Positions 579-61,119 of a stretch of DNA of 64,000 nt are shown here, in pieces. Location: IMG/VR virus record IMGVR_UViG_3300044616_001484. One strand, given 5' to 3'. The notes beneath the pieces were generated by a model. That model was not told where the DNA came from. It saw only the letters and a list, made by a program, of their open reading frames with translations, and ran no database searches. How positions within the stretch are numbered: the stretch's first letter is position 1; every line of letters starts with the position of its first letter. This DNA comes from an uncultured virus (IMG/VR IMGVR_UViG_3300044616_001484). Lineage: Duplodnaviria > Heunggongvirae > Uroviricota > Caudoviricetes. The position numbers were made by a program, and so were the translations under genes.

Positions 579-586
579 TATTTATA
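579..586 (-). promoter_or_regulatory. T4-type late promoter TATAAATA
   Basis: Exact T4 gp55 consensus upstream of SD and ATG at 565. Confidence 0.75.
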
Positions 587-3113: not shown

Positions 3114-3121
3114 TATTTATC
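3114..3121 (-). promoter_or_regulatory. Late promoter variant GATAAATA
   Basis: TAAATA core 6 nt upstream of ATG at 3107. Confidence 0.6.
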
Positions 3122-4799: not shown

Positions 4800-4801
4800 A
4801 A

Positions 4802-8985
<4,184 letters not shown>

Positions 8986-19776: not shown

Positions 19777-19782
19777 TTATTT

Positions 19783-20454: not shown

Positions 20455-20467
20455 TGCAATTTAACCT

Positions 20468-21478: not shown

Positions 21479-21509
21479 ATTAATCCTTTGTAAGTTATAT
21501 ATACTGTTT

Positions 21510-21537
21510 ATTTTATAATAAAAACTGTTATAGTCAA
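21510..21537 (-). promoter_or_regulatory. Sigma70-like promoter TTGACT-N16-TAAAAT
   Basis: Intergenic, upstream of AAGGA SD of the GME-like gene. Confidence 0.7.
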
Positions 21538-21538
21538 A

Positions 21539-22345: not shown

Positions 22346-22346
22346 A

Positions 22347-23132
22347 TTAGTTTATTAAATTTCTTTGTTTGTAGTAGTTTTCAAGATCATCATTGTTCAT
22401 TGATCTTATATAATTGTATAAACCAATATTTCTAACAGTATAATTAGAATCTTGGTTTTGTAAAGTTCGGTCATGCTCAACGTGAAAAACTGGGCCCCAA
22501 GCTCTACTTATTTTAGCCCCAAATTTATTTAAACGAAATAAAAATTCTCCATCTTCATAACCCCAGCCATTAAAATCTTCATTAAAGTATGAAAGATTTT
22601 TTGCAGTTTGTTTGTTTATCAACATTCCAAACCCACCGTGGCCATGCTTTAACATTAACTCATCAGGTTCTCCCCATTTACGCGGTGAAATTATTTTTTT
22701 AATTTGATCAAAATCATAATCAAGTTGAAAACTTGTAAAATACTCTTGAGGAATATCGTATTGAGGGCAGGTAAAAGGATAAACAACATCATACCCATTT
22801 GATGCCAACAATACACTTGTTTTTATTTGATGAACTGGAATTAAAATATCACAATCGTAAATTAAACACAAATCAGTTTTGGCAAAATTTAATCCTTGAT
22901 TAATTACTTTGGATCTATGATATGGGCCAGAAGTATGCAATGAATGGATTGTTGCATTTGTTATTCCATAATTTGCAAAAAGATTAGTAAGCAAATCAAA
23001 GTTATTATCTTGATCTATAATTAAAATGTTTGAATCATTTTTAAAATGATTGTGTAAATAAATTACTCCACGTAAAAGATTTTTTAATCTATCTTCACTA
23101 TCATACCTAAATTGAATTATAAAACTTAACAT
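22347..23132 (-). CDS. GT-A glycosyltransferase (GT2/GT7-like)
   Basis: DCD motif, FNEDFNGWGYED.EF..R, HVEH. Confidence 0.82.
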   Translation of the reverse strand: MLSFIIQFRYDSEDRLKNLLRGVIYLHNHFKNDSNILIIDQDNNFDLLTNLFANYGITNATIHSLHTSGPYHRSKVINQGLNFAKTDLCLIYDCDILIPVHQIKTSVLLASNGYDVVYPFTCPQYDIPQEYFTSFQLDYDFDQIKKIISPRKWGEPDELMLKHGHGGFGMLINKQTAKNLSYFNEDFNGWGYEDGEFLFRLNKFGAKISRAWGPVFHVEHDRTLQNQDSNYTVRNIGLYNYIRSMNNDDLENYYKQRNLIN

Positions 23133-23134
23133 AA

Positions 23135-23953
23135 TTAAAATTGATCAAATAAAGATTCAATACCTTGTTTTAGAGTAGTTTTTGGTTTCCAAAAATTTAA
23201 AATATATGGATCTGGTTCATTTCTTTTGTCAAGCTGAACAGTATCTTTTGCTGAATTAGGAACAATTGTGCAAGGTTTAATATCATTGATTATTGAAGCA
23301 ACTTCTAAAATAGTATTCCATTCAAAATTTGTAATATGAAGTTGTTTAGATCTGTCTATTGTAGCATAATTACGAGACAATTCAATTAAACACTCCGCAC
23401 AATCATCACCATATAAAAACTGTCTAGATTCTCTGCCATCTGTTCTCATTGTAATAGTGCCGTTGGTTTTAGACATTTTAATAAAATCGGTAATAACGTG
23501 TGATTTTTCTTCATCACTTTCATAACCATATACATTCCAAAATTTTACTACAATGCCGCCCAATGATTCTGTATACTTTTCTCCGATGGCCTTTAACAAT
23601 CCATATGTCGAATATGACATATTTGACATTTGAGATGATGCAAATATAAATGGTTTGTTGTGCTCTTTTAACATATCAAAAGTATTATTCATTATTTTGA
23701 TATTATTGGAGATAAAATTATATGTATCTTGATACTTCTTCATATACAACGAACCACCAATATCAAAAGCCAAAAAGTGTACAAAGTCACAATTTTGTAT
23801 TTTTTCTTTTAATATTTTATTGTTGTAAATTCGAAGATCTTCATCTTGTGTGTCTACGATATCAAAAGTAATTACATCTTCATTTTGTTCTTTTAACACC
23901 TTAACTAAATGATGACCAACTTGACCAGCAGAACCTAAAATTAAATGTTTCAT
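23135..23953 (-). CDS. NAD-dependent sugar epimerase/dehydratase (SDR)
   Basis: GSAGQVG, FASS, YGLLK, NVYG, DGRESRQF. Confidence 0.88.
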   Translation of the reverse strand: MKHLILGSAGQVGHHLVKVLKEQNEDVITFDIVDTQDEDLRIYNNKILKEKIQNCDFVHFLAFDIGGSLYMKKYQDTYNFISNNIKIMNNTFDMLKEHNKPFIFASSQMSNMSYSTYGLLKAIGEKYTESLGGIVVKFWNVYGYESDEEKSHVITDFIKMSKTNGTITMRTDGRESRQFLYGDDCAECLIELSRNYATIDRSKQLHITNFEWNTILEVASIINDIKPCTIVPNSAKDTVQLDKRNEPDPYILNFWKPKTTLKQGIESLFDQF

Positions 23954-23962
23954 GGTAATTAT

Positions 23963-24799
23963 TTATGCTTTTTGTAAAAAATAGTTTTCTATCATATAAT
24001 CGTCAGCAACTTGAAACTTGCAAGCGCGTTCATAATTTTCTTCTAGGTAAGGAAGCATATCATTATATAAGTTTTCATTTAAATCTTTTAATTCAATTTC
24101 GTCATGAAACAAAACACCTTTTGGATTAAAATATTTTTCAACTACTGCTCTACTTCCTCTATAAATTGGCACGGTATACATTGTCATCGGGCTCGTTAGT
24201 CTTTCTGTGAAATACATGTCTGTGACATCATTTTCCATAGATACTGTAAACATGTAATCCGTAAAAGCCTCATCGGTGTGATTTAATGGTTTGTGACCCC
24301 AGCCATAAACATCCATCATATGTTTGTTCTGATTCATGTAGTCCCATCTGTATCTGTGTCCAGACAAAACATATGCGTTTGATACCAACATACTCAATAA
24401 CTTTGTTTTTTTATGTTTTCCGCGATTTTGAGGAAGAGTCCATGGTGCAGCATTGCTGACAACATATGTAAATGGTGCACCCAAAGAAAGTAATTCATTA
24501 TGACAAGTAAAAATTTTATCATAATGCGCCTTAGCCAATTCAATGTTATTTTTTAAAAATTCAATATATCTTGCATTGTAACCCGGTGATTCCAAAAGCC
24601 AACCATATTTTTTTTGTGGTACGTCAAATCCTTGCATTATCCCTTCATCGATATAAAGTTCCAGATCAACAGGTCCTTCATAATTTTTGGGAACCCATTG
24701 CATATATTTTGAAACATTTAAATTGGAAGAACATACAGGATCGGTATCTGATTTGGGGGCAATACAACCGCAAATAGGTTTCATTAATAATTTTTTCAT
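23963..24799 (-). CDS. GT10 (alpha-1,3-fucosyltransferase-like) glycosyltransferase
   Basis: YMFTVSMEN...YFTERL...TVPIYRG. Confidence 0.8.
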   Translation of the reverse strand: MKKLLMKPICGCIAPKSDTDPVCSSNLNVSKYMQWVPKNYEGPVDLELYIDEGIMQGFDVPQKKYGWLLESPGYNARYIEFLKNNIELAKAHYDKIFTCHNELLSLGAPFTYVVSNAAPWTLPQNRGKHKKTKLLSMLVSNAYVLSGHRYRWDYMNQNKHMMDVYGWGHKPLNHTDEAFTDYMFTVSMENDVTDMYFTERLTSPMTMYTVPIYRGSRAVVEKYFNPKGVLFHDEIELKDLNENLYNDMLPYLEENYERACKFQVADDYMIENYFLQKA

Positions 24800-24811
24800 A
24801 TATATTTTTTC

Positions 24812-25627
24812 TTAAAAAGTAATCCAAGATTCTGGAAACAAATCACTTCTATCTAATGATGACAATTGCCCACCAAACCAATTTGTATTCGGGGCTATTA
24901 CAACTTTATTGGGGGCTTTATTTAAATATGCAGACCACCAACTAAAAGTACTATTTCCAATAATATTATTTGAACATATGCTCATAAAAATTAAATCAAT
25001 AATATTGGATTCATTTTCAATAAATGTATATGTGTTTGGCAAAATTTGTTTTGCCACAGCCATATTATCAGAAAACACTAAAATATTGTCTACTCGTTTT
25101 TCTAAATTAATTGTATCGATAGCTTTTTTATAATAGGCTTCTGTAAGCAATGGGAAAGTATCATGGCATGAAGGCCGATCTCCCCCAGCTCGCAAGTGTA
25201 TTGCAACAGAATTGTTTAATAAGTGCCCATATTTATTTACAATATAATCAACAATTTCTTGTTTTGGTTTAAAGTATTCTTCTACTAATTTTGTTTTTAT
25301 ATTTTTAAAATATTTTTCACTTTGAAAGTATCCACGAATATTGATATTATCAACTTTAGGTATTGGTCTATACGCAAAAGAATAATTTGCAGTGTGTGGA
25401 TGTAAATCTGTGTGTTGATATAACTGATAATTTTGAGTATATTCATCTACAAAATTAAATTTATTTTCAAAAAGATTTTGTATTTCCAGAGGTCTAAATG
25501 ATGAAACCCACGAATCTCTCGTGTTTAATAATTCATAGTTTAAATTAAGTTCATCTTTTAAATTTAAAAGTGCAGCTAATTGAAATAGATTATTTCCCAA
25601 TTCACCGTGAAATGTAGTTGTTATCAT
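24812..25627 (-). CDS. GT11 (alpha-1,2-fucosyltransferase-like) glycosyltransferase
   Basis: GELGNNLFQ, GYFQSEKYF, HLRAGGD, FSDN, NSTFSWW. Confidence 0.9.
   Translation of the reverse strand: MITTTFHGELGNNLFQLAALLNLKDELNLNYELLNTRDSWVSSFRPLEIQNLFENKFNFVDEYTQNYQLYQHTDLHPHTANYSFAYRPIPKVDNINIRGYFQSEKYFKNIKTKLVEEYFKPKQEIVDYIVNKYGHLLNNSVAIHLRAGGDRPSCHDTFPLLTEAYYKKAIDTINLEKRVDNILVFSDNMAVAKQILPNTYTFIENESNIIDLIFMSICSNNIIGNSTFSWWSAYLNKAPNKVVIAPNTNWFGGQLSSLDRSDLFPESWITF
25589..25627. repeat. 39-bp direct repeat, copy 1 (GT11 codons 1-13)
   Basis: ATTATTTCCCAATTCACCGTGAAATGTAGTTGTTATCAT. Confidence 0.95.
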
Positions 25628-25633
25628 ATAATT

Positions 25634-26308
25634 TTATAGGGTAATTTTTTTTACTTGATAAAATCTGTGAATGTGGGGATAACTATATCCAATTTGTCCC
25701 AAAAAATCAAATTCAATATTATATTCAGAACAAATTTCCTTGTGGGCTCGGGGTTCTCCTTTTGACATATTTTCCCAATCACGAATACCACCCCAATCAT
25801 CGTAATAAATAAAGGTTCCTTCTACGATTATTTTATTTTTTATATAAAAATCTAAACAATATTTTGTTGGAGTATAAATATCAAAATCTGCATCTATAAT
25901 AAGAGCTGGTTCAAATTTATATTTTACATAATTATCCAAATTATTTGTATTTTCAGCCAATCCCATAAATAAATTTAACTCTGTATTTTTACAACAAGGA
26001 ATTAATTTATCGTAAACGCATTTAAGACATTCTTCTGCAGAATTTACATTAAAAAACTTTTGTGCGTTTATTCCACCTTTTTTCCAAGATTCTTGGTCTA
26101 CTTCTTCCGCATTTTCATCTGGCATTCCTGCAAAAGTATCAAAACCAAAATATTTTTGAATAAATAAATTTTTTTCATTAAAATATTCAATAGTTTCTTT
26201 CATGGAGTCTCCATTAAAAACACCCCACTGATATATCGTATTTAAATTTTTATTTTGTGAAGTTTTTAAAATTAAATCAAAATGCTTTTTATAAAAGTTT
26301 AATCGCAT
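25634..26308 (-). CDS. TylF/MycF-like O-methyltransferase
   Basis: WGVFNGDS, GFDTFAGMP, DADFDIYTPT, YYDDW, GE..A. Confidence 0.75.
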   Translation of the reverse strand: MRLNFYKKHFDLILKTSQNKNLNTIYQWGVFNGDSMKETIEYFNEKNLFIQKYFGFDTFAGMPDENAEEVDQESWKKGGINAQKFFNVNSAEECLKCVYDKLIPCCKNTELNLFMGLAENTNNLDNYVKYKFEPALIIDADFDIYTPTKYCLDFYIKNKIIVEGTFIYYDDWGGIRDWENMSKGEPRAHKEICSEYNIEFDFLGQIGYSYPHIHRFYQVKKITL

Positions 26309-26310
26309 AA

Positions 26311-26349
26311 ATTATTTCCTAATTCACCGTGAAATGTAGTTGTTATCAT
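26311..26349. repeat. 39-bp direct repeat, copy 2 (5' remnant of GT11; mini-ORF MITTTFHGELGNNLCD* at 26299-26349)
   Basis: ATTATTTCCTAATTCACCGTGAAATGTAGTTGTTATCAT, 38/39 identical to copy 1. Confidence 0.95.
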
Positions 26350-26373
26350 TTAATTCAATTCCATCAAAAGTTT

Positions 26374-27450
26374 TCATAATATATTTGTAAGTTGATTTAA
26401 AACTTCTTTTCTCGTATCTAATATTTTTATTTGATATCCAAGTTCTTTTAACTTGATTGCAAATTTTAACTGCTGTGATTCTTCCAGCAAAACACTATCT
26501 TTTTTATAAGTTACATATTCAATTTCAACAACTTCATTTTTATTTGGATGATTTTTTATAAAATCTTCTATTTGGTATTCCAAATGTTTTTTATTCATCT
26601 CGTCAGTTGCTTTTGAAATAATTGCATCGACACCAACTTGTTCACCACATTTAGCCAATGCTCTATTATCTCTAGGAAAACACGGTCCACCAAATCCAAA
26701 TCCGGGTTTAATATATTTAGTTCCAATTCTAGAATCTGTTCCAACTGCCTGCAATACAACATTTGCATCACAACCAAATCTTGTTGCAATATCACCAACC
26801 ATATTTGCGTAACTTATTTTTGTTGTTAAAAAACAATTTACAGCTAATTTGGTTAATTCAGCTTCTGTGCGTGACATTTTATTATATGTTGGTCTAGATT
26901 CTACCATATTTTCATATATTGATTGTATCAAATTTCCTGCATATTCATCAGCTTGACCTATTAACACATTATCACACAACAATTGGTCTTTAATGATAGA
27001 ACCTTGAGCAATAAATTCTGGATTGTATGAAACATGGTAATTGCAATCAACAAGCTTGGCATGAAGTGTGTCACAATATCCGGGAAACGTAGTGCAATTT
27101 ATAATTATATCTTTTCTTTTTGATTGTTTCCCAAAAGATATAAGTTGTTTTGCAATATTTTCAATTTGTGTATGATCATATTTAAAATCTGTCGTAGATG
27201 GAGTTGCAACAACAACAAATATTACATCATTTATTATTGCATCCGCAATACTGGTTGAAAAATTTAATTTTGTAGATTTTTTTAAATAATCATTAACATA
27301 TTGCTCTTCGCTACAAAACGTTTTTAAAATTAAGCTATTAACATAATTTTTATCTTTGTCAATACCTAAAACATCATATCCTTTACGTTCAAGGTTTAAA
27401 GCTAGACACAACCCTAGCTTACCTACACCAATTATTGAAATATTTTTCAT
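26374..27450 (-). CDS. UDP-glucose/GDP-mannose 6-dehydrogenase family
   Basis: GVGKLG, YNPEF, AELTKLAVN, PGFGFGGPCFPRD. Confidence 0.9.
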   Translation of the reverse strand: MKNISIIGVGKLGLCLALNLERKGYDVLGIDKDKNYVNSLILKTFCSEEQYVNDYLKKSTKLNFSTSIADAIINDVIFVVVATPSTTDFKYDHTQIENIAKQLISFGKQSKRKDIIINCTTFPGYCDTLHAKLVDCNYHVSYNPEFIAQGSIIKDQLLCDNVLIGQADEYAGNLIQSIYENMVESRPTYNKMSRTEAELTKLAVNCFLTTKISYANMVGDIATRFGCDANVVLQAVGTDSRIGTKYIKPGFGFGGPCFPRDNRALAKCGEQVGVDAIISKATDEMNKKHLEYQIEDFIKNHPNKNEVVEIEYVTYKKDSVLLEESQQLKFAIKLKELGYQIKILDTRKEVLNQLTNIL

Positions 27451-27451
27451 A

Positions 27452-28234
27452 TTATTGTTTGTTATTTTTTAATTTATATACTGGAATAGAAATCATTTTA
27501 TGTTTGTTTTTAGAATTATACATTTTATAAATTTTAATTACTTGTTTTTGCCTGTATGTTAAAGATGATTCGGGAAAATTTATATTTTCCATTGCCCATT
27601 CTAATTCTTCGTAAGACGCACCAATTTGTTGTTCATCTGTACGATCATCATCCCACAGCCCATCTGTAGGTGCTGCTGTAATAATTTCATTATAAACTCC
27701 CAAACATTTACCCAATTCTCTTACATCTGTTTTCGACAAATCTGCTATTGGTGAAATATCTACTCCACCATCGCCATATTTAGTAAAAAATCCTACACCA
27801 AAATCCTCAACTTTATTTCCAGTTCCTACAACCAAACCCAGATGTTCTGTCGCAACATGATATAAAGCCATCATACGATGTCTTGATTTTGTATTGGCAT
27901 TTGCCAATTTATTATCAATGTTTAATTGCGTTTTTATTGAATTAAAAAATTTATTATAAGCGTCAGATAAATCTAATTTAATGTATTTTACATTTGAAAA
28001 CTTTGAAGATAACCATTTACAATGTTTATCTGATAAATTTGTATTTTTTTCAGTAGACAAAATTGGAATATTTAATATTATTACGGGCATCAATGTTTTT
28101 GCACATAGTGTAGAAACTACAGCAGAATCTATGCCTCCAGAAACACCAACAACAAAAGTTTTTAAATTGTTTTTTATAAGATATGTTTTTAACCACTCAC
28201 TTATATCAGAAGCAATGTAATCATAATTTTTCAT
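27452..28234 (-). CDS. nadE: NH3-dependent NAD+ synthetase
   Basis: GVSGGIDS, NTKSRHRM, GTGNKVE, FFTKYGDGGVDISPIADL, APTDGLW..TDE. Confidence 0.93.
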   Translation of the reverse strand: MKNYDYIASDISEWLKTYLIKNNLKTFVVGVSGGIDSAVVSTLCAKTLMPVIILNIPILSTEKNTNLSDKHCKWLSSKFSNVKYIKLDLSDAYNKFFNSIKTQLNIDNKLANANTKSRHRMMALYHVATEHLGLVVGTGNKVEDFGVGFFTKYGDGGVDISPIADLSKTDVRELGKCLGVYNEIITAAPTDGLWDDDRTDEQQIGASYEELEWAMENINFPESSLTYRQKQVIKIYKMYNSKNKHKMISIPVYKLKNNKQ

Positions 28235-29091
28235 AATAAAATCCATTCTTTGGGGAAAAAACCATCACGTTCATGAGTAGTATAATCCAAATGATAATTT
28301 GATGGTGCTATTACTATTTTATTTGGGTTGGGGTTTACATAACCAGCCCACCAACCAAAAGTTGAACTATGCGAAAGAATGTTGTAATCACATGACATTA
28401 TTCTGGAATAATCTGTTACCGGATTGTTTGATGCAGCAACTATAAAATTATCCGATTTAAAATATCGTTGTGCCCATTCTATATCTTCTTTATCATCTCC
28501 TGTAGTACTTCCTCCAGTAAAAATTAAAAAAACAAAATCATCTTTTTTAGAAAAATAATTTAAAGCTGAATGCAAATAACTTCCAAATTCACTAGATGGG
28601 TCAAACGGATTATCACGATATAAAGGAGTACTGGGAGTTGATCTATCACTTAAATCACCTCGTCTAATATGAATGCTGATTGCTTTTCTTCCTTGTTTTA
28701 TAGAATCAACATATTCTTTAGCACTTTTTAAATAATGTTCTTTTGGTATTAATTCTTTTTTAATATCATTTTCAATATTATTAAAATATTTTGTATTTTG
28801 AAAAAAACCAAATAAATTTGTACCATCTGTAACATTTAATATGTGATCGTAATAATATCCACTTGGTTCTGGTTCAAAAATTGTTTTATATATTAGATCT
28901 GTTCCAGATAATCTTTCACAATTTATTTGAAATTCATTTAATAAACAATTTTGACCGTGCCACGTTCTATTTTCTGTAAAAGGTATTTTTGGTGTTAAAT
29001 TATATTTTTTTGCTAAACCTTTTAAAGTTGCATATTGATAAAATTGATTTCCAAGTCTACCCCATTCGCCCAATTTAGTAAATGTAATCAT
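28231..29091 (-). CDS. Second GT11 glycosyltransferase
   Basis: GRLGNQFYQ, GFFQNTKYF, HIRRGD, SSTFGWW. Confidence 0.9.
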   Translation of the reverse strand: MITFTKLGEWGRLGNQFYQYATLKGLAKKYNLTPKIPFTENRTWHGQNCLLNEFQINCERLSGTDLIYKTIFEPEPSGYYYDHILNVTDGTNLFGFFQNTKYFNNIENDIKKELIPKEHYLKSAKEYVDSIKQGRKAISIHIRRGDLSDRSTPSTPLYRDNPFDPSSEFGSYLHSALNYFSKKDDFVFLIFTGGSTTGDDKEDIEWAQRYFKSDNFIVAASNNPVTDYSRIMSCDYNILSHSSTFGWWAGYVNPNPNKIVIAPSNYHLDYTTHERDGFFPKEWILL

Positions 29092-29092
29092 A

Positions 29093-29788
29093 TTATTCCC
29101 AAACACAAATTTTATTTAAATCTTCTGATCCATACAAATAACCACGCTTAAATCCTTCAAAACCAAGCCAAGGATTTAAAGTAGATCCAATATCCATATA
29201 CGTGTTGTTTTTATTGTGTTGCCACATTTTATATGCCAATATATTACCAAAAGGCCCTGCGGCAAATAAATATAACTCACCTTGAGTGTTTAGTTCTTTT
29301 AATTCTTCAATTAAATCAAGATTCTCTACCCAAGCATTTACTTTGATTGGATAAAATCGTTTTACATCAAAAGGCAATTTTGTTATATCAGATTTTTCAT
29401 TTGCTATCAGATTAACAGTCCAATTTTTATATTCTGGAATAAAGTTATCTTTATAAAAGAGATAATTTGAGTTTACAAATATATTTGCATACGTAAGATT
29501 TTCCTCGTCTTGACCGGAAATAGTTTTCATTTGCTGATGTGCTTGTCCTTGGCAGCAAGGACAGCTAATTCCTACAAAATAATTTGGATCTTTGTAAACA
29601 AAAGATTCTCTCAAAAGTTGAATTGAGTTTAAGGTTTTTTCTGATGAATCTGCTTTAAACTCACCATTATATACTGGGAACTGATTCATTGCCATCCATT
29701 CGCCGTCAGCATATTTGCTAAATGCAAATGGTTTTTTGGAAATCAATCGTGCAAATAGTTTTTCAATTTCAGGTTTAAATAATTTCAT
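29093..29788 (-). CDS. Hypothetical protein, possible GT-D-fold glycosyltransferase
   Basis: FSKYADGE N-terminal and AAGP...DIGS C-terminal motifs. Confidence 0.55.
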   Translation of the reverse strand: MKLFKPEIEKLFARLISKKPFAFSKYADGEWMAMNQFPVYNGEFKADSSEKTLNSIQLLRESFVYKDPNYFVGISCPCCQGQAHQQMKTISGQDEENLTYANIFVNSNYLFYKDNFIPEYKNWTVNLIANEKSDITKLPFDVKRFYPIKVNAWVENLDLIEELKELNTQGELYLFAAGPFGNILAYKMWQHNKNNTYMDIGSTLNPWLGFEGFKRGYLYGSEDLNKICVWE

Positions 29789-30770
29789 TTGTATATTGTT
29801 TCAACGTTTTAATAATTTTTTCCACGGCTTTACCGTCGCCATATGGACATGTTTCACTTACTTCGTAGTATTTATCAAAGTCTTTGATACATTCTCTTAT
29901 GCAAATTGGTTCAAATGCCAAAACAGAAAATGTCCCAAGACCTTCTTTTCTTTCTGTTTCTTTTCTCACAACTATTGTTCTTTTTTTAAAAAAAGATGCT
30001 TCTTCTTGAATTCCACCGCTGTCGGTTATGATAAACTTGGATTGTTTTAATAAATTTATCATGTTTGGATAAGTTTGCGGAGACATTACAGAAATATTTT
30101 TAAAATCGTTATCAACAGTTATAGATGGGTGTTTGATGTATACAAAATTTAAATGTTTAAAATTTAAAGCCACCTCATCTATTGCTTTTAATACTTTTTC
30201 AATTCTATCTTTATTTTCTCTTCTGTGTAGAGTAATAGGAATGGTATTTCCATAAAATACATTTTCATTATCCAAATTATCCAAAACAGTATTACCAACA
30301 ACATGAATTGTTCCGTTTACTTTTTCATTTTGTAATACCTGTTTATTTAATTCCGAAACACAAAAATGCATGTCAGCCATGTTGGAGATGCATTTTCTAT
30401 ATGTTTCTTCTGGATATGGATTTTCTTTATCCCAAGTTCTTAATCCAGCTTCTATGTGAATTATTTTTATTTTGTTGTGAAACGCATTTAAAGCTATACC
30501 AAAACTTGTTGCTGTATCACCTTGGACAATTACATATGTTGCATTTGATGCAAATAATTTACTGTTTAAAGTTTGTTGAATAATTGAATTTAATCTATTA
30601 TTGTCGCTGATGTGTATGTCTACCAATCTGTCAAAATAACAATCTTCAATTAATGTGGTGTGTTGATTTACTTTTACCAGTTCACATTCAAAATTTGCAT
30701 TTTTCATTTCTGTATAAAGTTTATACAGTTTTATGTATTCTGGTCTAGTTCCATAAAAAATAGATATCAT
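29775..30770 (-). CDS. wecB: UDP-GlcNAc 2-epimerase (non-hydrolysing)
   Basis: GTRPEYIK, QGDT, HIEAGLRT, YPEE, TLHRREN, TDSGGIQEEA. Confidence 0.92.
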   Translation of the reverse strand: MISIFYGTRPEYIKLYKLYTEMKNANFECELVKVNQHTTLIEDCYFDRLVDIHISDNNRLNSIIQQTLNSKLFASNATYVIVQGDTATSFGIALNAFHNKIKIIHIEAGLRTWDKENPYPEETYRKCISNMADMHFCVSELNKQVLQNEKVNGTIHVVGNTVLDNLDNENVFYGNTIPITLHRRENKDRIEKVLKAIDEVALNFKHLNFVYIKHPSITVDNDFKNISVMSPQTYPNMINLLKQSKFIITDSGGIQEEASFFKKRTIVVRKETERKEGLGTFSVLAFEPICIRECIKDFDKYYEVSETCPYGDGKAVEKIIKTLKQYTNEII

Positions 30771-30771
30771 T

Positions 30772-31527
30772 TTATGCTCTTAATAATTTAAATCCACTGT
30801 CAACAGACTTTGAAAGTTCCATAGCCATCATTTGCCCACCAGATAAGCGCATATTACCAAATTGGTATAAATTCATGGATATTCCTTCAGCACTATGTCC
30901 ATAAGGTTCTCCCTTTATACTTCCCCACATTTCCATATCATTCGCTGGGTGTGGTGGAACATAAACACCTTGATTGGTGTATTTTTGTATCATTTTAGCA
31001 AAATGAATATCTTCACCTACAATTGGTATTTGATTTGTTGGTGGAAGTTCTCTCCAAAAAACAGAAAGAAGATCCCTGTGAAAAAACCAACAATGTCCTA
31101 CTATATCAACTTTTTCAACTGTTTCATTTGGCTTACACCAACCTAAACGCTCTACTTTATTCCAAGTATAATACTTGTCACCAAAAATTACACCAACTGT
31201 GCCAAGCAAGCCCGGATGGGTTTTGTATGTGTTTAGGCAATTTTCAATCCATTTGGTTCCCGGTATCGTATCATCATCAAAAATTGCAATATAGTCTGAT
31301 CGACAATTTAAAGCCAATGCAAATCTTGCCCATACACCTAAATTTTGATTACAGTCAACAAAAATAACATCATCTTTTTGAGACTGTTCTATGGGTTCAG
31401 AATCAGATTTATTTTGCCAAACAAATATTTCATTGATTGGTACTGATTGATTTTTTATGGCTTGCTGTTGTTCAGCAAACCATCTTGTTCTACGATATGA
31501 ATTTAAAACTATTGAAACGGTTTCCAT
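30772..31527 (-). CDS. GT-A (GT2-like) glycosyltransferase
   Basis: GVWARF, FDDD, GEDIHF. Confidence 0.78.
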   Translation of the reverse strand: METVSIVLNSYRRTRWFAEQQQAIKNQSVPINEIFVWQNKSDSEPIEQSQKDDVIFVDCNQNLGVWARFALALNCRSDYIAIFDDDTIPGTKWIENCLNTYKTHPGLLGTVGVIFGDKYYTWNKVERLGWCKPNETVEKVDIVGHCWFFHRDLLSVFWRELPPTNQIPIVGEDIHFAKMIQKYTNQGVYVPPHPANDMEMWGSIKGEPYGHSAEGISMNLYQFGNMRLSGGQMMAMELSKSVDSGFKLLRA

Positions 31528-32141
31528 TAATAATCAAAACCACTGTTTGGTGTGGTCCCCCAATATTGTTTTGCGTAAATTTTTCCTTCTCCTGAATACT
31601 CTATACCCGAATAATGTCTTGGTATAAAATACCAACTTGGATATACTGTGATAGGATATTTTGTTCTGTAAACTGTATTTGTTAGTAACATAGGCCCAGT
31701 AATAGCCCAAGTTTCCAGTGGGTGATAATTCATATTTGGAAATTGGATTATTTGATCCATTATCACATTCATCAATTGGCAATTTTTTTCACAAGCCAAA
31801 TAACCATTTGCCATTAAGCCTGTTCGAACTTGTTCATTTTCCCAACAACAAAAAACTTTATTATTTGTAAAAAAATCATCAAGTGAATTTACACATTCAG
31901 AGTCCGCATCAATAAAAAAACCACCTTCATCGTGCAAAATTTGATATCTTAAAATATCAGCTTTTCCCGGAAGGGATGGGCATTCATCAAATTGCTTTTT
32001 GCACTTTAATTTTGGTAGGTTATCGTCTGTCCAAAGTTTATGTTGCCAAGATGGATTTTTTTCAATCCATGTTTCAATAAACTTTGAAGGTCGTTTTGAT
32101 TGGTCTCCCAACCAAATTTGGTGTATAATTTTTGGAATCAT
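31527..32141 (-). CDS. GT32 (Och1/DXD) glycosyltransferase
   Basis: IPKIIHQIW, ADILRY.IL..GG..IDAD, TGP. Confidence 0.88.
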   Translation of the reverse strand: MIPKIIHQIWLGDQSKRPSKFIETWIEKNPSWQHKLWTDDNLPKLKCKKQFDECPSLPGKADILRYQILHDEGGFFIDADSECVNSLDDFFTNNKVFCCWENEQVRTGLMANGYLACEKNCQLMNVIMDQIIQFPNMNYHPLETWAITGPMLLTNTVYRTKYPITVYPSWYFIPRHYSGIEYSGEGKIYAKQYWGTTPNSGFDY

Positions 32142-34869: not shown

Positions 34870-34871
34870 AC

Positions 34872-58757: not shown

Positions 58758-58785
58758 AATCTACTGTTAAAGGGACTAAAAGCAA
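58758..58785 (-). promoter_or_regulatory. Sigma70-like promoter TTGCTT-N16-TAGATT
   Basis: -10 ends 6 nt before gp33 ATG. Confidence 0.6.
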
Positions 58786-58797
58786 TAAATAAAAGTA

Positions 58798-58841: not shown

Positions 58842-59819
58842 ATGCCATCACCATCACCGTTTGGTCCACAAGATGATAACGTAATTATTGAAACAGGCGG
58901 TTTGACATTCTTTGTCGCCACAGATTCTGTCGTATTTGCTGGTGTTACGGCACAGTTCCAATTACAAAAATTGGCATTTGGTCCTACTGGTTCTGCCCAA
59001 ATTGTTGACTCCTCCAATGGTCTTCCTGTAAATGTTATTGCTGGTGGTATAACAGCCAATCTAGTTGGATTCTGTGGTGCGGTTCAAGGTATTGTTGGTG
59101 GAACACCGGTAACTGTTGATGGAACAGTTTATGTTACTGGTATAACAAGCGCACCAGCCTATGTTAGAACTGCTTCAGGTTATCAAGTAGAAATCACAGG
59201 TGGTGTACCACTAAACAAAACAAAAGATGCAATTTCTGTATTCGGGCCATCTGGAAGCACGTGGATTTACTCCAATTTAGTAAATTCATCTGGAACAGAA
59301 ATTGGAAATTCTGCAAATCCAATGTTTGTTCAAATAAGTGGAGCAACAATCAATGCCCTTATCAATCCTATTGTGGGAGTAACAAATAGTGCTTTTTCTC
59401 CGTTGTTTATATCAGGTGTATGCGGAGCAACTGCAGTTTCAGTCAATGTCGGAAATACTGTTGGTGTAAATGATACCGCCATTCTTACGGGAATGACTGC
59501 AATTTACGGTCAACTTTTGTCATTAAATTTGGGATTGGCTACGGCAATGCCAACGGATTTCAAAACCGGAAGAACATCTTCTACATATCCAGCAGTACAA
59601 CAACTAGATTCTGGTTACACCTGTGGCAAGGGAGTTTCAATAAAGGCACTTTCAACCAACACAGATTTTGTTTATATTGGTAATTCCGGTTCTTTCTCTG
59701 GAAGCGTAGGTCACGCTTTAGATCCCGGTGATAGTGTTTTCTTGACAATTAGTAATTTAAATAAAGTTTACATTGTATCTGCAAGTTCTACACAGACAGT
59801 CACATACATAGCTTCATAA
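58842..59819 (+). CDS. Gly/Thr-rich putative virion protein
   Basis: Late promoter, SD, many G-x-T; C-terminal V.IKA...NT..VYIG...L.PG domain. Confidence 0.7.
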   Translation: MPSPSPFGPQDDNVIIETGGLTFFVATDSVVFAGVTAQFQLQKLAFGPTGSAQIVDSSNGLPVNVIAGGITANLVGFCGAVQGIVGGTPVTVDGTVYVTGITSAPAYVRTASGYQVEITGGVPLNKTKDAISVFGPSGSTWIYSNLVNSSGTEIGNSANPMFVQISGATINALINPIVGVTNSAFSPLFISGVCGATAVSVNVGNTVGVNDTAILTGMTAIYGQLLSLNLGLATAMPTDFKTGRTSSTYPAVQQLDSGYTCGKGVSIKALSTNTDFVYIGNSGSFSGSVGHALDPGDSVFLTISNLNKVYIVSASSTQTVTYIAS

Positions 59820-59823
59820 AATA

Positions 59824-61119
59824 ATGTTTAATCCTACATTAAATAATGTAAGAAATTATAAAAATTATGGTATTTCCGTATATGGAAATACCTATGATCC
59901 TGTATTCACAAAAGGTTGGTTAAATTCCAGACCAAATATTTCTATATCTGGAACAACTTGTTATTTTGATTACTCAAATATTTTTGATACATCTGATAGA
60001 ACTTTCTTAAAGAAGACTTTTGGTGTAATACCAGCAGGCACAACTTTTTATGTTTCAGATATACAATACTACGATGAAAATGCAAATTATCGAACCGTAG
60101 TAGGTGGAACATGTTTATTCAACTCCACATTTAATGATGGAAAAGTAATTATAGGAAATGTTGTAAGCGGATTTACATTTAATCAAAATTACAATTTCTT
60201 TAGTCAAGAAAATATTGTAACTGCTCCACAATACCAATTTTCTTACACCGGTTCTACGGGCTTTAACTATATTTTAAATCAATTCCCAAATGTAAATCAA
60301 ACCAATCTAAAAAGAATGGGATTTTTGGGAAATAAATTTAATTTTGAAGAATATGTTGAAATATCTGGAGCAACAGGATTGAATTACGGCAAGTTAAAAA
60401 TAGATTCTGTAATAACTCTAAAAGATTCTCAAGAAGCATTATATTTAACTGGAACTGCCCAAAATCAAAATCTAACACAAACTGCAACTGAACTAAAAAT
60501 GTTTATTCGCGGTGGCTCAGATGTTGATGAAATTCAAAAACCACAAAATGTTTTGGGAATTTACCGTATTCACAACTCTGATAACCAATTGGTAAATTGC
60601 TACGAAAACCAAAACGAATATCAAGTACATTTAAGAAAACAAACTTTGGGGTCTACTTATAGTGGTTATTGGGTTCAATGCGAATCTTGTCCAACAACAG
60701 TATACGGAGAAGATGTAGCAGTTGAAGACTTTATATCAAACATGTTGTTTGATAATATGTTGTTTGTTTATATAAACACAACAGTCACAACATCATTCCC
60801 CGATTTTACTCCTGTATACAATAGAACTTTGTTAACACAAAGAAACTTTACGGGAAATCCGCAAAATGCTTCTTCTCTCACATTCTCAATTAGAACAGGT
60901 CTAAAAATAGACTTGAGCCATTCATCTTTACAAAACTGGAACTTTGAAGTTTATATTGATCCTGCATATACAGTTCCTCTTTCGGTTGGATTTGTAAAAA
61001 CGGGAACTCCGGGTTTTAATAATGCTTTTGTTTTAGTACAAAGAAATGAAAATACCCCAAATCAACTTTATTGTAAATTTGTGGGTCCATCTGTTCTTCC
61101 ACTAACTCTTAGTATATAA
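59824..61119 (+). CDS. Putative structural protein
   Basis: Long ORF in same late unit; Asn/Thr-rich. Confidence 0.65.
   Translation: MFNPTLNNVRNYKNYGISVYGNTYDPVFTKGWLNSRPNISISGTTCYFDYSNIFDTSDRTFLKKTFGVIPAGTTFYVSDIQYYDENANYRTVVGGTCLFNSTFNDGKVIIGNVVSGFTFNQNYNFFSQENIVTAPQYQFSYTGSTGFNYILNQFPNVNQTNLKRMGFLGNKFNFEEYVEISGATGLNYGKLKIDSVITLKDSQEALYLTGTAQNQNLTQTATELKMFIRGGSDVDEIQKPQNVLGIYRIHNSDNQLVNCYENQNEYQVHLRKQTLGSTYSGYWVQCESCPTTVYGEDVAVEDFISNMLFDNMLFVYINTTVTTSFPDFTPVYNRTLLTQRNFTGNPQNASSLTFSIRTGLKIDLSHSSLQNWNFEVYIDPAYTVPLSVGFVKTGTPGFNNAFVLVQRNENTPNQLYCKFVGPSVLPLTLSI

What the first reader, a model, noticed from the sequence alone, without database searches (positions are those of the whole stretch)
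58842..61119. G-x-T (and G-x-C) motif enriched across non-collagen structural proteins: a putative glycosylation sequon
Seen (hand count): 58842..59819 has 14 G-x-T among about 40 Gly ([33 protein letters not shown]) plus GFC and GVC. The 131-aa ORF at 9864 has 5 (GVT three times); gp18 has about 8; single copies lie in gp14 (AGVTF), gp15 (AGATT), gp13 (DGTTG), gp6 (AGVTL), gp53 (SGTTG, KGATY, TGSTG) and the gp23 variable region (SGWT). Replication enzymes show no obvious excess. Inference: selection has planted an acceptor motif on virion surfaces; Thr/Cys interchange fits a SunS-like O/S-glycosyltransferase.
Basis: partly seen in the sequence, partly recalled or inferred. Interest (0 to 1): 0.8.

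Follow-up and report, generated by a model that had tools for sequence, protein, structure and literature searches.

The report
Gly-x-Thr excess in phage fibre proteins
An uncultured T4-like phage really does carry about twice as many Gly-x-Thr motifs as expected in its tail-fibre-type proteins and also encodes a sugar-adding enzyme of the kind that modifies proteins, but whether the motif is a sugar-attachment site or just a feature of how these fibres fold remains open.

Summary
ORF 58842-59819 has 14 G-x-T against 4.4 expected. With collagen runs masked, G-x-T is the most over-represented of 1,480 residue pairs in the window (140 vs 86.9). The excess is specific to Thr and to this spacing. 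It sits in seven fibre-like late proteins, not in core virion proteins or enzymes. Three T4-like phages without the enzyme show 1.06-1.28x under the strict count, and five tailspike homologues 1.08x under the plain count.

The "GT2-TPR" is real. ORF 10326-11549 folds as GT-A plus a helical repeat domain, and its best structural matches are SunS and ThuS. It follows regA in all 47 informative related contigs. A collagen-like fibre gene lies downstream in 33 of 33 loci with enough sequence.

No result shows glycosylation. The motif sits in amphipathic strand contexts with near-invariant Gly. An unrelated phage with a homologous enzyme has the excess only inside collagen repeats. A terminator-like hairpin separates the enzyme gene from the fibre genes.

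My odds: structural signature about 0.45, selected sequon about 0.30. Glycosylation of collagen-like G-X-T triplets is a separate and likelier idea.

The parts
58842..59819 (+). 325-aa fibre-like late protein, the focus of the finding. It has an N-terminal beta-strand shaft with ~12-14-residue G-h-T periodicity, a helix at 212-235 forming a trimeric coiled coil, and a C-terminal jelly-roll head (235-325).
   Evidence: 14 G-x-T vs 4.4 expected. No PHROG, Pfam or NCBIfam hit and no tblastn hit in 50,697 phage records. 159 metagenomic homologues. A profile search finds 3,284 relatives, mostly of the C-terminal domain. Homotrimer model ipSAE 0.54, best control 0.00, with self-contacts at 214/218/221/225. 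VIA Z 8.8 to Ena and 8.5 to PM2 spike P1, i.e. generic jelly roll only. It occupies the position after gp32/gp33 where T4 has genes 34-37.
59824..61119 (+). 431-aa ORF directly downstream, of unknown family; second half of the finding's coordinates.
   Evidence: 8 G-x-T vs 3.2 (p 0.007). No PHROG, Pfam or NCBIfam hit. The ORF directly downstream of the ORF-325 homologue in G002 (position only; no alignment made) has 9 vs 3.6.
58785..58791 (+). ATAAATA, a T4-type late-promoter-like core 51 nt upstream of the ORF 58842 start.
   Evidence: The same heptamer lies just upstream of the collagen fibre, tailspike, gp22, sheath-position and gp13 genes. The motif is not enriched in the window overall (28 vs 37 expected), so this is weak evidence.
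10326..11549 (-). GT-A (family 2) glycosyltransferase fused to a helical TPR-like domain, SunS/ThuS-like in fold. It is the last gene of the gp45-gp44-gp62-regA block.
   Evidence: Pfam PF00535 1.6e-12. PDB sequence hits: GmaR 7e-10, SunS 2e-6, ThuS entry 5e-6, N-terminal ~95 residues only. AF2 pLDDT 88.7, strands 1-165, helices 176-389. Foldseek SunS 7e-16 and ThuS 7e-15 over 382-395 columns. NCBIfam TIGR04195 scores 36 bits against a cut-off of 350. It follows regA in 47 of 47 informative loci. 2,404 metagenomic homologues; a match in only 9 of 50,697 phage records.
10270..10302 (-). Hairpin with an 11-bp stem followed by U6, between the glycosyltransferase gene and the 131-aa ORF; terminator-like.
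   Evidence: RNA fold -12.1 kcal/mol, z -3.1 against shuffles. The simple terminator scan did not list it.
9864..10259 (-). 131-aa protein (phrog_1084, unknown function) that accompanies the glycosyltransferase in related phages.
   Evidence: 5 G-x-T vs 2.6. Homologue present in 32 of 33 loci. 31 distinct family members pooled: 166 vs 55.8 (2.98x). G12-D-T14 and G33-x-T35 are nearly invariant at 29-97% identity. ESM Atlas gives a weak lead to BppU baseplate proteins.
9025..9861 (-). 278-aa fibre-like protein with a six-triplet collagen-like start and NGQTG motifs.
   Evidence: 9 G-x-T vs 3.5 (p 0.002). Sequence, triplets. No hit in the phage collection.
6508..8985 (-). 825-aa tailspike: Mtd_N domain, then a pectate-lyase-like beta-helix, then a C-terminal domain.
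   Evidence: Pfam PF18454 and PF12708. 17 G-x-T vs 9.9. Ten of the 17 lie in the N-terminal 71 residues or the last 81 residues (745-825). Five homologues from other phages pooled: 34 vs 31.4.
3120..4892 (-). 590-aa Cys-rich protein of unknown family inside the fibre module.
   Evidence: 10 G-x-T vs 5.6 (p 0.04). No family hit.
582..3107 (-). 841-aa collagen-like tail fibre.
   Evidence: Pfam Collagen 3.8e-40. 35 G-x-T vs 13.1. 95 triplets, with Y = Thr 25 and Gln 24, X = Pro 33. This matches the usual bacterial pattern, Thr 31.6% at Y (passages of PMC8968730).
42636..43919 (-). 427-aa ORF at the sheath (gp18) position, between the terminase and tube genes.
   Evidence: 8 G-x-T vs 4.3 (p 0.048). 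No PHROG hit. The 431-aa ORF of G002 that I take for its counterpart (by size only; no alignment or synteny check) has 11 vs 4.8.
18018..32141 (-). Island of nucleotide-sugar and glycosyltransferase genes: NTP transferase, epimerases, UDP-glucose dehydrogenase, UDP-GlcNAc 2-epimerase, methyltransferases, GT11 x2, GT10, GT2 x2 and a DXD GT.
   Evidence: PHROG and Pfam hits. Published work on pelagimyophages reads such islands as host O-antigen modification (passages of PMC7029224).

Best explanation
The G-x-T excess is a real, lineage-specific property of the late fibre-module proteins of this uncultured T4-like phage. I think it is most likely a sequence signature of how these fibres are built. 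Gly closes a turn or kink, the next residue (usually hydrophobic) faces the trimer core, and a beta-branched polar Thr faces solvent at the start of a strand. Short collagen-related G-x-T-G segments add further copies.

ORF 58842-59819 would then be a homotrimeric receptor-binding-type fibre. It has a beta-strand shaft carrying the motif every 12-14 residues, a coiled-coil neck and a jelly-roll head.

Separately, the phage encodes a SunS/ThuS/SgtA-like GT-A-TPR enzyme. I rate a protein-glycosylating role at about 0.5. Its likeliest targets are Thr at the Y position of G-X-T triplets in the collagen-like fibres (about 0.45), as SgtA does on BclA3. On this reading the isolated G-x-T sites are not a selected sequon, though some could be modified incidentally.

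Shown: the statistics, conservation, fold of the enzyme and synteny. Inferred: the fibre architecture (from models), any enzyme activity and any substrate.
For: Conservation. Gly of the motif is 91% conserved against 74% for other Gly. The middle residue varies, mostly among I, L, V, M, A, F and Y.

Context. Over 63 non-collagen sites, hydrophobic residues stand at -2 (0.56), +1 (0.54) and +3 (0.59), against a background of 0.41. Ser/Thr stand at -1.

Models. In the AF2 monomer, strands begin right after G20 and G34 and at G69. The trimer model puts the middle residue at the interface in 9 of 14 sites and Thr in 4 of 14.

Residue preference. The excess is Thr-specific. GxS is 1.06-1.29, as strand propensity would predict.

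Substitutions. Replacements at the motif's Thr include V 29, L 13 and A 11 of 158. Only 32% keep OH or SH, against 35% at other Thr.

Age of the motif. It belongs to an old repeat. 71 distant relatives of 250 aa or more give 729 vs 410.7, and the excess is stronger in their N-terminal parts (609 vs 331.9) than in the last 105 residues; seven of these sequences were read and show units such as V-G-V-T-x-G.

Precedents without a known protein glycosyltransferase. T4 gp36 has 6 vs 1.7 and gp37 has 19 vs 11.8. HTVC008M G/T-rich ORFs give 1.28 under the strict count.

Independent lineages with a homologous enzyme. In Tunturi_5 and LR756502 the excess is confined to collagen runs; outside them the counts are 13 vs 11.7 and 22 vs 18.5.

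For the enzyme part: with passages of PMC7157674.
Against: Seven proteins between which I saw no likeness (profile comparison run only for ORF 58842 against 9864 and 9025; the other pairs not compared) share the bias in one phage, and 9 of 10 G/T-rich ORFs reach 1.7x or more with collagen masked. That is much to ask of fold alone.

G-x-T is the top of 1,480 pairs here but ranks 177, 256 and 153 in T4, HTVC008M and Tunturi_5.

The tailspike's homologues in five other phages show no excess.

Across 33 related loci, the ORFs downstream of the enzyme gene give 663 vs 388.1 isolated G-x-T. The upstream replication genes give 188 vs 170.3.

At the seven best-conserved sites of ORF 58842, 14 of 22 substitutions are Ser and only 1 is Val. 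One column is Cys 23 / Thr 19 / Ser 6 and nothing else. That pattern fits a requirement for a hydroxyl or thiol.

The Thr residues look solvent-facing, where an enzyme could reach them.

The shaft models are of modest confidence: monomer pLDDT 63.5, trimer pLDDT 67-73.
Confidence: 0.45

Rival explanations
1. G-x-T (with occasional G-x-C or G-x-S) is an acceptor motif selected on exposed faces of fibre proteins. The SunS/SgtA-like GT-A-TPR enzyme primes it, and the transferases of the 18-32 kb island perhaps extend the glycan.
For: The excess is spacing- and Thr-specific. It ranks first of 1,480 pairs and is confined to fibre-module proteins.

It is absent from three T4-like phages without the enzyme and from five tailspike homologues.

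It is clade-wide downstream of the enzyme gene: 1.71x, or 1.92x in proteins with no collagen run, against 1.10x upstream. The 131-aa protein next to the enzyme gene reaches 2.98x across 31 family members.

Thr is outward-facing in the trimer model.

Some columns hold only Cys/Thr/Ser, and Ser is the main substitute at the best-conserved sites.

The enzyme's fold is nearest to O/S-glycosyltransferases that act on peptides. SgtA, a GT-A-TPR enzyme, adds GlcNAc to Thr of G-P-T repeats (passages of PMC7157674). Glycocin transferases modify Ser, Thr or Cys (passages of PMC12457901).

Virion glycosylation is known in mycobacteriophages. I saw this only as cited in PMC12619734; the primary paper is not held.
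Against: There is no direct evidence of any modification.

GxS is not enriched, although SgtA accepts Ser.

68% of substitutions at the motif's Thr remove the acceptor.

Gly is more conserved than Thr, and the context is strand-like.

Tunturi_5 and LR756502 show no non-collagen excess despite a homologous enzyme.

Under the strict count, G002 (1.31) is about equal to HTVC008M (1.28).

Abundant surface proteins (capsid, tube) carry no excess.

Phage enzymes do not avoid the motif (31 vs 25.8), so G-x-T alone cannot be a sufficient determinant.

The enzyme gene lies in the replication operon, ahead of a terminator-like hairpin.

G-x-C cannot be tested (9 vs 4.9).
Confidence: 0.3
2. Only collagen-type G-X-T triplets are glycosylated, as in SgtA-BclA3. 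The isolated sites are structural. This overlaps with the best explanation and is listed for its own odds.
For: A collagen-like ORF lies within 10 kb downstream of the enzyme gene in 33 of 33 related loci. Thr is the commonest Y residue there (960 of 2,508).

In G002 the enzyme gene lies about 0.5 kb from a set of four collagen-like fibre ORFs spanning 61.6-76.8 kb.

Tunturi_5 has one collagen-like ORF in 308 kb. It carries 62 Thr in 105 Y positions and lies 3.7 kb from the homologous enzyme gene.

LR756502 has a collagen-bearing 1,937-aa ORF 6 kb from its homologue.

Precedent: passages of PMC7157674. BclA is glycosylated in Bacillus spores (passages of PMC8968730).
Against: Thr at Y is the norm in bacterial collagens without any enzyme (31.6%; PMC8968730).

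Only 9 of 50,697 phage records have a match to this enzyme. By recall, not by a count made here, collagen-like fibres are common in phages.

LR756501 has no collagen-like ORF within 20 kb of its homologue.

In both the window's clade and Tunturi_5 the enzyme gene is co-directional with replication genes and merely abuts the fibre module.

I could not compare the sequence with SgtA.
Confidence: 0.45
3. The enzyme acts on something other than virion proteins, such as a host protein or envelope glycan, a small peptide or phage DNA. The G-x-T excess is unrelated to it.
For: The gene ends the gp45-gp44-gp62-regA block and is followed by a terminator-like hairpin.

In Tunturi_5 it sits with nucleotidyltransferase, replication-initiation and dUTPase genes.

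Published work assigns pelagimyophage glycosyltransferases to host O-chain modification (passages of PMC7029224).
Against: The full-length fold match is to peptide glycosyltransferases with a protein-binding repeat domain, not to lipid- or DNA-directed ones.

The calls found no glycocin-type precursor, transporter or thiol-disulfide oxidoreductase nearby.

The enzyme shows 81-85% identity across phages whose ORF-58842-type fibre protein has diverged to about 50-60%. That marks it as a conserved core function, but says nothing about the substrate.
Confidence: 0.3
4. Chance, composition or local G+T richness produces the apparent excess.
For: For ORF 58842 alone, the Bonferroni-corrected p over 784 pairs is only about 0.16. 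The fibre-like class was partly defined after the fact.
Against: 0 of 2,000 shuffles reach 14. Neighbouring spacings are near 1. G-x-T ranks 1 of 1,480 at p 1e-7 in an unbiased scan. The excess replicates in 49 homologues (mean z 3.7) and across 33 related loci (z 14.8).
Confidence: 0.02

Closest known systems
Clostridioides difficile SgtA with its substrate BclA3 (exosporium collagen-like glycoprotein)
   Same: Both are a GT-A domain followed by TPR repeats, encoded beside a collagen-like protein gene. SgtA adds beta-O-GlcNAc to Thr in G-P-T triplets, that is, a G-x-T context (passages of PMC7157674). The window's enzyme has the same two-part architecture and collagen-like fibre genes downstream.
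   Different: SgtA lies immediately upstream of its substrate gene. In the window the enzyme gene ends a replication operon, a hairpin follows it, and the long collagen fibre is 7 kb away. SgtA accepts Ser, yet G-x-S is not enriched here. The finding concerns non-collagen sites, for which SgtA offers no precedent.
SunS / ThuS glycocin S/O-glycosyltransferases (PDB 7MSN, 7MSK; NCBIfam TIGR04195)
   Same: They are the best structural matches over nearly the whole length (E 7e-16 and 7e-15, 382-395 columns, TM about 0.58). TIGR04195 is the only NCBIfam hit. The family modifies Cys, Ser or Thr of peptides (passages of PMC12457901).
   Different: 16-18% identity. The HMM score is 36 bits against a cut-off of 350. 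The family scans of the window's ORFs named no precursor peptide, peptidase-transporter or thiol-disulfide oxidoreductase. Known substrates are roughly 40-residue helix-loop-helix peptides (recalled), not fibre proteins.
Listeria GmaR, flagellin O-GlcNAc transferase
   Same: It is the best sequence hit among solved structures (E 7e-10, residues 8-100). It is a cytoplasmic GT-A enzyme with TPR repeats that modifies a filament-forming structural protein (its role is recalled; PMC9638930 was seen only in the search listing).
   Different: Similarity covers only about 95 residues of the nucleotide-binding half. No consensus sequon is known for GmaR (recalled).
Mycobacteriophage virion glycosylation (Freeman et al. 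2023)
   Same: Phage-encoded glycosyltransferases decorate virion proteins.
   Different: There the glycans sit at C-termini of capsid and tail-tube subunits (as cited in PMC12619734; the primary paper is not held). Here capsid and tube show no motif excess, and the candidate targets are fibres.
T4 long tail fibre proteins gp36/gp37
   Same: They occupy the same genomic position as ORF 58842/59824, after gp32 and gp33. Individually they are G-x-T-rich without any known protein glycosyltransferase: gp36 6 vs 1.7, gp37 19 vs 11.8.
   Different: No detectable homology. T4 fibres pooled reach only 1.31-1.40x, and the T4 proteome ranks G-x-T 177th.

Membership tests
SunS family peptide S-glycosyltransferase (TIGR04195) | Scores above the curated equivalog cut-off of the family HMM | tested here: not met
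   36.2 bits against a cut-off of 350; only residues 6-97 match.
SunS family peptide S-glycosyltransferase (TIGR04195) | GT-A catalytic domain followed by a helical TPR-like domain, superposable on SunS/ThuS | tested here: met
   AF2 pLDDT 88.7. Foldseek 7MSN E 7e-16 over 395 columns, 7MSK 7e-15; next family TarS 7e-8.
SunS family peptide S-glycosyltransferase (TIGR04195) | Acidic DxD-type metal/nucleotide-sugar motif in the GT-A domain | tested here: met
   D89, D91 and D92 (I-D-A-D-D) are invariant in 40 homologues. That this is the catalytic motif is inferred from its position, not from a structure-based alignment.
SunS family peptide S-glycosyltransferase (TIGR04195) | Gene cluster with a precursor peptide, a peptidase-containing ABC transporter and thiol-disulfide oxidoreductases | tested here: not met
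   The neighbours are regA and a 131-aa phrog_1084 protein. No such families appear among 75 ORFs scanned against PHROGs or 29 ORFs scanned against Pfam.
SgtA-type O-GlcNAc transferase of collagen-like proteins | GT-A domain plus C-terminal TPR repeats | tested here: met
   SgtA architecture as described in passages of PMC7157674.
SgtA-type O-GlcNAc transferase of collagen-like proteins | Encoded next to a collagen-like substrate gene rich in G-x-T triplets | tested here: inconclusive
   A collagen-like ORF lies within 10 kb downstream in 33 of 33 related loci, and near the homologue in Tunturi_5 and LR756502 but not LR756501. In the window the long collagen fibre is 7 kb away, and a terminator-like hairpin separates the units.
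SgtA-type O-GlcNAc transferase of collagen-like proteins | Sequence homology to SgtA; transfer of GlcNAc to Thr | not testable with these tools
   No SgtA sequence or structure was available through the tools, and no assay is possible.
Collagen triple-helix repeat protein (PF01391) | Uninterrupted G-X-Y repeats | tested here: not met
   For ORF 58842-59819: no Pfam hit and no run of six or more triplets. Met for ORF 582-3107 (3.8e-40, 95 triplets).
Trimeric phage receptor-binding fibre (generic architecture) | Homotrimer with intertwined shaft, coiled-coil neck and C-terminal head domain | tested here: inconclusive
   Three-copy model ipSAE 0.54 (runs 0.48, 0.54, 0.54) against a best control of 0.00. 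The mark was reached by 20 of 30 solved homo-pairs and 1 of 23 single chains in the tool's calibration, which used two copies. Partner pLDDT at least 67, and runs agree in at least 50% of contacts. Head domain Z 8.5-8.8, within the range the tool calls common. A model, not a measurement.
Protein glycosylation sequon (concept) | Motif over-represented on exposed surfaces of target proteins relative to composition and to relatives that lack the enzyme | tested here: met
   The margin shrinks under the strict count (G002 1.31 vs HTVC008M 1.28).
Protein glycosylation sequon (concept) | Acceptor residue preferentially replaced by other acceptors (Ser/Cys) | tested here: inconclusive
   Overall 51 of 158 substitutions (32%) are Ser or Cys, against 35% Ser at other Thr. 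At the seven best-conserved sites 14 of 22 are Ser, and one column is Cys/Thr/Ser only.
Protein glycosylation sequon (concept) | Glycan detected on the motif | not testable with these tools
   The phage is uncultured. No proteomic data were examined.

The most novel reading that the evidence does not exclude
A widespread clade of uncultured aquatic T4-like phages O-glycosylates its tail-fibre proteins. A core SunS/SgtA-like GT-A-TPR enzyme, made with the replication genes, primes outward-facing Thr in G-x-T. It acts first on collagen-like triplets and, by extension, on isolated G-x-T at strand starts of non-collagen fibre proteins, including ORF 58842 and the 131-aa protein beside the enzyme gene. 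The 14-kb sugar island then supplies and extends the glycan. Selection would have raised G-x-T to the most over-represented residue pair in the proteome.
Probability: 0.3. Interest if true: 0.8.

Novelty: new variant of a known kind. Interest (0 to 1): 0.55.

Why it matters
Suppose the motif marks glycan attachment. This would be the first case I know of in which a T4-like phage sugar-coats its host-recognition fibres. It would come with a readable sequon and a dedicated enzyme found in thousands of metagenomic sequences (2,404 homologues).

That would change how the large glycosyltransferase islands of aquatic myophages are read. At present they are assigned to host O-antigen modification (PMC7029224). 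It would also bear on host range, particle stability and phage-display engineering.

Two library searches returned nothing describing such a system (judged from the listings; passages of one hit, PMC7029224, read).

If the motif is structural, the result is still useful. It gives a recognisable sequence signature for a large uncharacterised fibre family (3,284 profile hits). It also shows that a motif excess next to a glycosyltransferase is not in itself evidence of a sequon.

Tried and rejected
Identity of ORF 58842:
- Pfam, PHROGs and NCBIfam gave nothing.
- tblastn against 50,697 phage records gave nothing.
- Pfam and PHROG scans of 24 distant relatives gave two weak, unrelated hits.
- The AF2 monomer was poor for the shaft (pLDDT 63.5). 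Foldseek against the PDB gave nothing at E <= 0.001.
- VIA-wide gave only generic jelly-roll matches for residues 235-325, and the shaft was barely tested.

Shared ancestry between G-x-T-rich proteins: profile comparison of the ORF 58842 family with ORFs 9864 and 9025 found none.

A natural 'enzyme-less' sister phage: none exists among 48 regA loci. Among nine long contigs, presence of the enzyme gene simply tracked whether the regA region was covered.

Other searches that found nothing:
- tblastn of ORFs 9025 and 9864 against the phage collection.
- TATAAATA and ATAAATA are not enriched in the window, so the late-promoter argument is weak.
- The simple terminator scan did not list the hairpin later found by folding.
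- No whole genome is held for the window.
- The primary mycobacteriophage glycosylation paper is not held.
- Earlier-findings look-ups by place and by sequence were empty.

Idea rejected: that local G+T richness explains the excess. Neighbouring spacings are near 1.

Claim weakened: that the clade-wide 'non-collagen' excess is all independent of collagen. Part of G002's excess vanished once short G-x-T-G segments were excluded, falling from 1.46 to 1.31.

Full report
WHAT THE WINDOW IS

The window is part of an uncultured T4-like myovirus. PHROG hits name gp45, gp44, gp62, regA, gp46/47, gp55, uvsY, uvsW, gp23, gp22, gp21, gp20, tube proteins, gp17, gp16, gp15, gp14, gp13, baseplate proteins, gp32 and gp33. 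The major capsid protein is about 52% identical to those of marine cyanomyoviruses.

Three regions matter for the finding:
- A fibre module at 0.5-10.3 kb. It holds a collagen-like fibre, a Cys-rich 590-aa protein, a pectate-lyase-type tailspike, a 278-aa protein and a 131-aa protein.
- A family-2 glycosyltransferase at 10326-11549, directly after regA.
- A 14-kb island of nucleotide-sugar and glycosyltransferase genes at 18-32 kb.

The finding's two ORFs, 58842-59819 and 59824-61119, lie divergently after gp32 and gp33. T4 has its long-tail-fibre genes 34-37 at that position.

THE OBSERVATION

The hand counts are right. ORF 58842-59819 has 41 Gly, 35 Thr and 14 G-x-T, plus GFC and GVC. Shuffles expect 4.4 +/- 1.8, and none of 2,000 reaches 14. 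The eight short motifs quoted for other genes are all present.

Taken alone, the protein is not overwhelming. G-x-T is its top pair of 784, but the corrected p is about 0.16. The pooled data are strong:
- Six non-collagen fibre-like proteins give 63 vs 29.1 (p 4e-8).
- In the same proteins GxS, GT, GxxT and TxG lie at 1.06-1.14.

The effect is therefore specific to Thr and to spacing 2. It is not a by-product of G+T-rich segments.

In an unbiased scan of 1,480 residue pairs at spacings 1-4, with collagen runs masked, G-x-T is first (140 vs 86.9, p 1e-7).

The strictest count takes only isolated G-x-T, with no Gly at -3 or +3 and runs of three or more triplets masked:
- fibre-like proteins: 50 vs 25.7 (z 5.0)
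- core structural proteins: 27 vs 24.4
- non-structural proteins: 29 vs 21.8

So the excess belongs to fibre-type proteins, not to 'structural proteins' in general. G-x-C is too rare to judge (9 vs 4.9).

CONTROLS IN OTHER PHAGES

The same ORF caller and the same masking gave these G-x-T ratios:

| Genome | Enzyme gene | Ratio | G/T-rich ORFs at 1.7x or more |
|---|---|---|---|
| window | yes | 1.61 | 9 of 10 |
| G002, a 136-kb contig of the same clade | yes | 1.29 | 7 of 22 |
| T4 | no | 1.12 | 1 of 13 |
| cyanophage S-SSM4 | no | 1.13 | 1 of 9 |
| pelagiphage HTVC008M | no | 1.08 | 2 of 17 |
| Tunturiibacter phage Tunturi_5 | homologue | 1.08 | 3 of 38 |

The rank of G-x-T among all pairs was 1 (window), 5 (G002), 177 (T4), 256 (HTVC008M) and 153 (Tunturi_5).

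Five homologues of the window's tailspike, from phages without the enzyme, give 34 vs 31.4. The window's tailspike gives 17 vs 9.9.

Against a clean dichotomy:
- Under the strict isolated count, G002 (1.31) is no higher than HTVC008M (1.28).
- Single T4 fibre proteins are G-x-T-rich: gp36 6 vs 1.7, gp37 19 vs 11.8.

WHAT ORF 58842 IS

It has no named family. It has 159 close metagenomic homologues, and a profile search finds 3,284 relatives, most sharing only the C-terminal ~100 residues. In 49 aligned homologues the excess recurs (mean z 3.7). Most sites are positionally conserved, with the middle residue varying among hydrophobics.

Distant relatives of 250 aa or more give 729 vs 410.7. They show repeated units such as V-x-G-x-x-G-x-x-P-V-G-V-T-x-G.

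The monomer model is confident only for a helix (212-235) and a C-terminal beta-sandwich. That domain matches jelly rolls such as Ena subunits and the PM2 spike head at Z 8.5-8.8. The tool itself calls this range common.

A three-copy model passes its controls, with ipSAE 0.54 (runs 0.48, 0.54, 0.54) against a best control of 0.00. In the tool's calibration, 20 of 30 solved homo-pairs and 1 of 23 single chains reached the mark. That calibration used two copies and the tool's own alignments. Partner pLDDT is at least 67, and the runs agree in at least 50% of contacts. Self-contacts at 214, 218, 221 and 225 indicate a trimeric coiled coil.

In that model the middle residue of G-x-T is at the confident interface in 9 of 14 sites, and Thr in 4 of 14. 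The background for residues 10-235 is 65%.

An ATAAATA lies 51 nt upstream of the start, as it does before several known late genes. This is weak evidence.

The protein is best read as a late, homotrimeric, receptor-binding-type fibre whose shaft carries outward-facing Thr after a conserved Gly.

THE ENZYME

ORF 10326-11549 has a Pfam GT2 domain.
- By sequence, its best solved relatives are GmaR, SunS and the ThuS entry. The matches cover only the first ~95 residues.
- A confident model (pLDDT 88.7) shows a GT-A domain (1-165) and a helical repeat domain (176-389).
- Foldseek puts SunS and ThuS first over 382-395 columns, at E 7e-16 and 7e-15. The next family, TarS, scores 7e-8.
- It is not a SunS-family member by the curated HMM (36 bits vs 350).
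- It has no glycocin-type neighbours.

Passages of PMC7157674 describe SgtA as GT-A plus TPR, encoded upstream of bclA3. It adds beta-O-GlcNAc to Thr of G-P-T repeats and accepts Ser in vitro. I could not compare sequences.

The gene is a fixed core gene of the clade:
- 47 of 47 informative regA loci carry it directly after regA.
- It is 81-85% identical in contigs whose ORF-58842-type protein is only 50-60% identical.
- It has 2,404 metagenomic homologues, yet a match in only 9 of 50,697 phage records.

It closes the replication-gene block. An 11-bp hairpin followed by U6 comes after it (-12.1 kcal/mol, z -3.1). So it is probably not co-transcribed with the fibre genes.

THE FIBRE MODULE BESIDE THE ENZYME GENE

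33 related loci have at least 3 kb of sequence downstream of the enzyme gene.
- All 33 have a collagen-like ORF there (Y = Thr in 960 of 2,508 triplets), and 32 have the 131-aa protein.
- The 161 distinct downstream ORFs give 663 vs 388.1 isolated G-x-T (1.71x). Those without any collagen run give 304 vs 158.5 (1.92x).
- GxS in the same ORFs is 1.06, and the upstream replication genes give 1.10.
- The 131-aa family reaches 166 vs 55.8, with G-D-T and G-x-T sites nearly invariant down to 29% identity.

These loci are related, so the counts are not independent events.

INDEPENDENT LINEAGES WITH A HOMOLOGOUS ENZYME

- Tunturi_5 (33% identity) has a single collagen-like ORF in 308 kb. It is a tail fibre with (G-P/A-T)n runs, 3.7 kb from the enzyme gene. 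It has 79 G-x-T vs 30.1, of which 66 lie inside the runs and 13 outside (11.7 expected).
- LR756502 has a 1,937-aa ORF with G-A/S/P-T runs 6 kb away. Outside the runs it has 22 vs 18.5.
- LR756501 has nothing of the kind within 20 kb.

Outside the window's clade, then, the enzyme goes with collagen-type G-X-T fibres and not with isolated G-x-T. The base rate must be kept in mind. Thr is the commonest Y residue of bacterial collagens in any case (31.6%; passages of PMC8968730).

WEIGHING THE READINGS

For a structural origin:
- Gly is near-invariant (91%).
- The context is strand-like and amphipathic.
- Thr is preferred over Ser.
- Val, Leu and Ala substitutions occur, and only 32% of substitutions keep an acceptor.
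- The motif sits in an ancient repeat.
- Single T4 fibres show the same bias.
- Enzyme-bearing Tunturi_5 and LR756502 have no isolated-site excess.

For a sequon:
- Seven proteins with no detected likeness to one another (only two pairs were compared by profile) share the bias in one phage.
- G-x-T ranks first in the proteome.
- It is absent from controls and from the tailspike homologues.
- There is a sharp contrast between ORFs downstream and upstream of the enzyme gene.
- The Thr residues face outward.
- One column holds only Cys/Thr/Ser, and Ser is the main substitute at the best-conserved sites.
- SgtA provides an enzymatic precedent for G-x-T.

I put the structural reading at about 0.45 and the selected-sequon reading at about 0.30. 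The remainder covers other functional uses of a Thr surface, or mixtures. Glycosylation of collagen-type triplets by this enzyme stands at about 0.45, judged independently of the other two.

The published reading of such glycosyltransferases in pelagimyophages is host O-chain modification (passages of PMC7029224). Two full-text searches found no description of fibre glycosylation in T4-like phages.

VERDICT

Co-expressing the enzyme with the 131-aa, 278-aa and 325-aa proteins and a collagen-like fragment, followed by mass spectrometry, would settle it.

Noticed in passing
window 10326-11549 (-): The SunS/ThuS-like GT-A-TPR glycosyltransferase is a fixed core gene directly after regA in this phage clade. 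It has 2,404 metagenomic homologues but a match in only 9 of 50,697 phage records.
   Followed up: yes
window 9864-10259 (-): A 131-aa phrog_1084 protein accompanies the glycosyltransferase in 32 of 33 related loci. Its family has the strongest G-x-T excess seen (2.98x). The ESM Atlas gives a weak lead to BppU baseplate proteins. It could be a dedicated substrate or a fibre-anchoring protein.
   Followed up: partly
window 10270-10302 (-): An 11-bp hairpin plus U6 sits between the glycosyltransferase gene and the fibre module. This suggests the enzyme gene is transcribed with the replication genes.
   Followed up: partly
L098-L114 (PP885688.1, Tunturi_5) 28905-38126; L116 (LR756502.1) 8132-21173: In two unrelated large phages a homologue of the enzyme lies 3.7-6 kb from a collagen-like fibre gene made of G-P/A/S-T triplets. 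In Tunturi_5 that is the only collagen-like ORF in 308 kb.
   Followed up: partly
window 34872-35408, 41569-42105, 42106-42636, 55712-56275: Four ORFs hit the same tail-tube family (phrog_45), two of them adjacent. That is more tube-like paralogues than T4's gp19 with gp3, gp48 and gp54 would lead one to expect by name.
   Followed up: no
window 42636-43919 (-): The ORF at the sheath position is only 427 aa, against 659-800 aa in T4, S-SSM4 and HTVC008M. It hits no PHROG family.
   Followed up: no
window 18018-32141 (-): This 14-kb sugar island has two GT11 (fucosyltransferase-type) genes, a GT10-like gene, a UDP-GlcNAc 2-epimerase, a UDP-glucose dehydrogenase, methyltransferases, and a weak sub-threshold GT-D match at 29093-29788.
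   Followed up: no
P0131 (relative of ORF 58842): One distant relative consists of four tandem copies of the ~95-residue C-terminal jelly-roll domain. The domain also occurs alone in many 90-170-aa proteins.
   Followed up: no
window 62826-63461 (-) and 3120-4892 (-): Two Cys-rich proteins of unknown family: 12 Cys in 211 aa with CxxC-type spacing, and 21 Cys in 590 aa inside the fibre module.
   Followed up: no
window 51589-53592 (-): This baseplate-region protein ends in low-complexity G-N-T-G-S-T / G-G-T runs and also has a GxS excess (10 vs 4.6).
   Followed up: no
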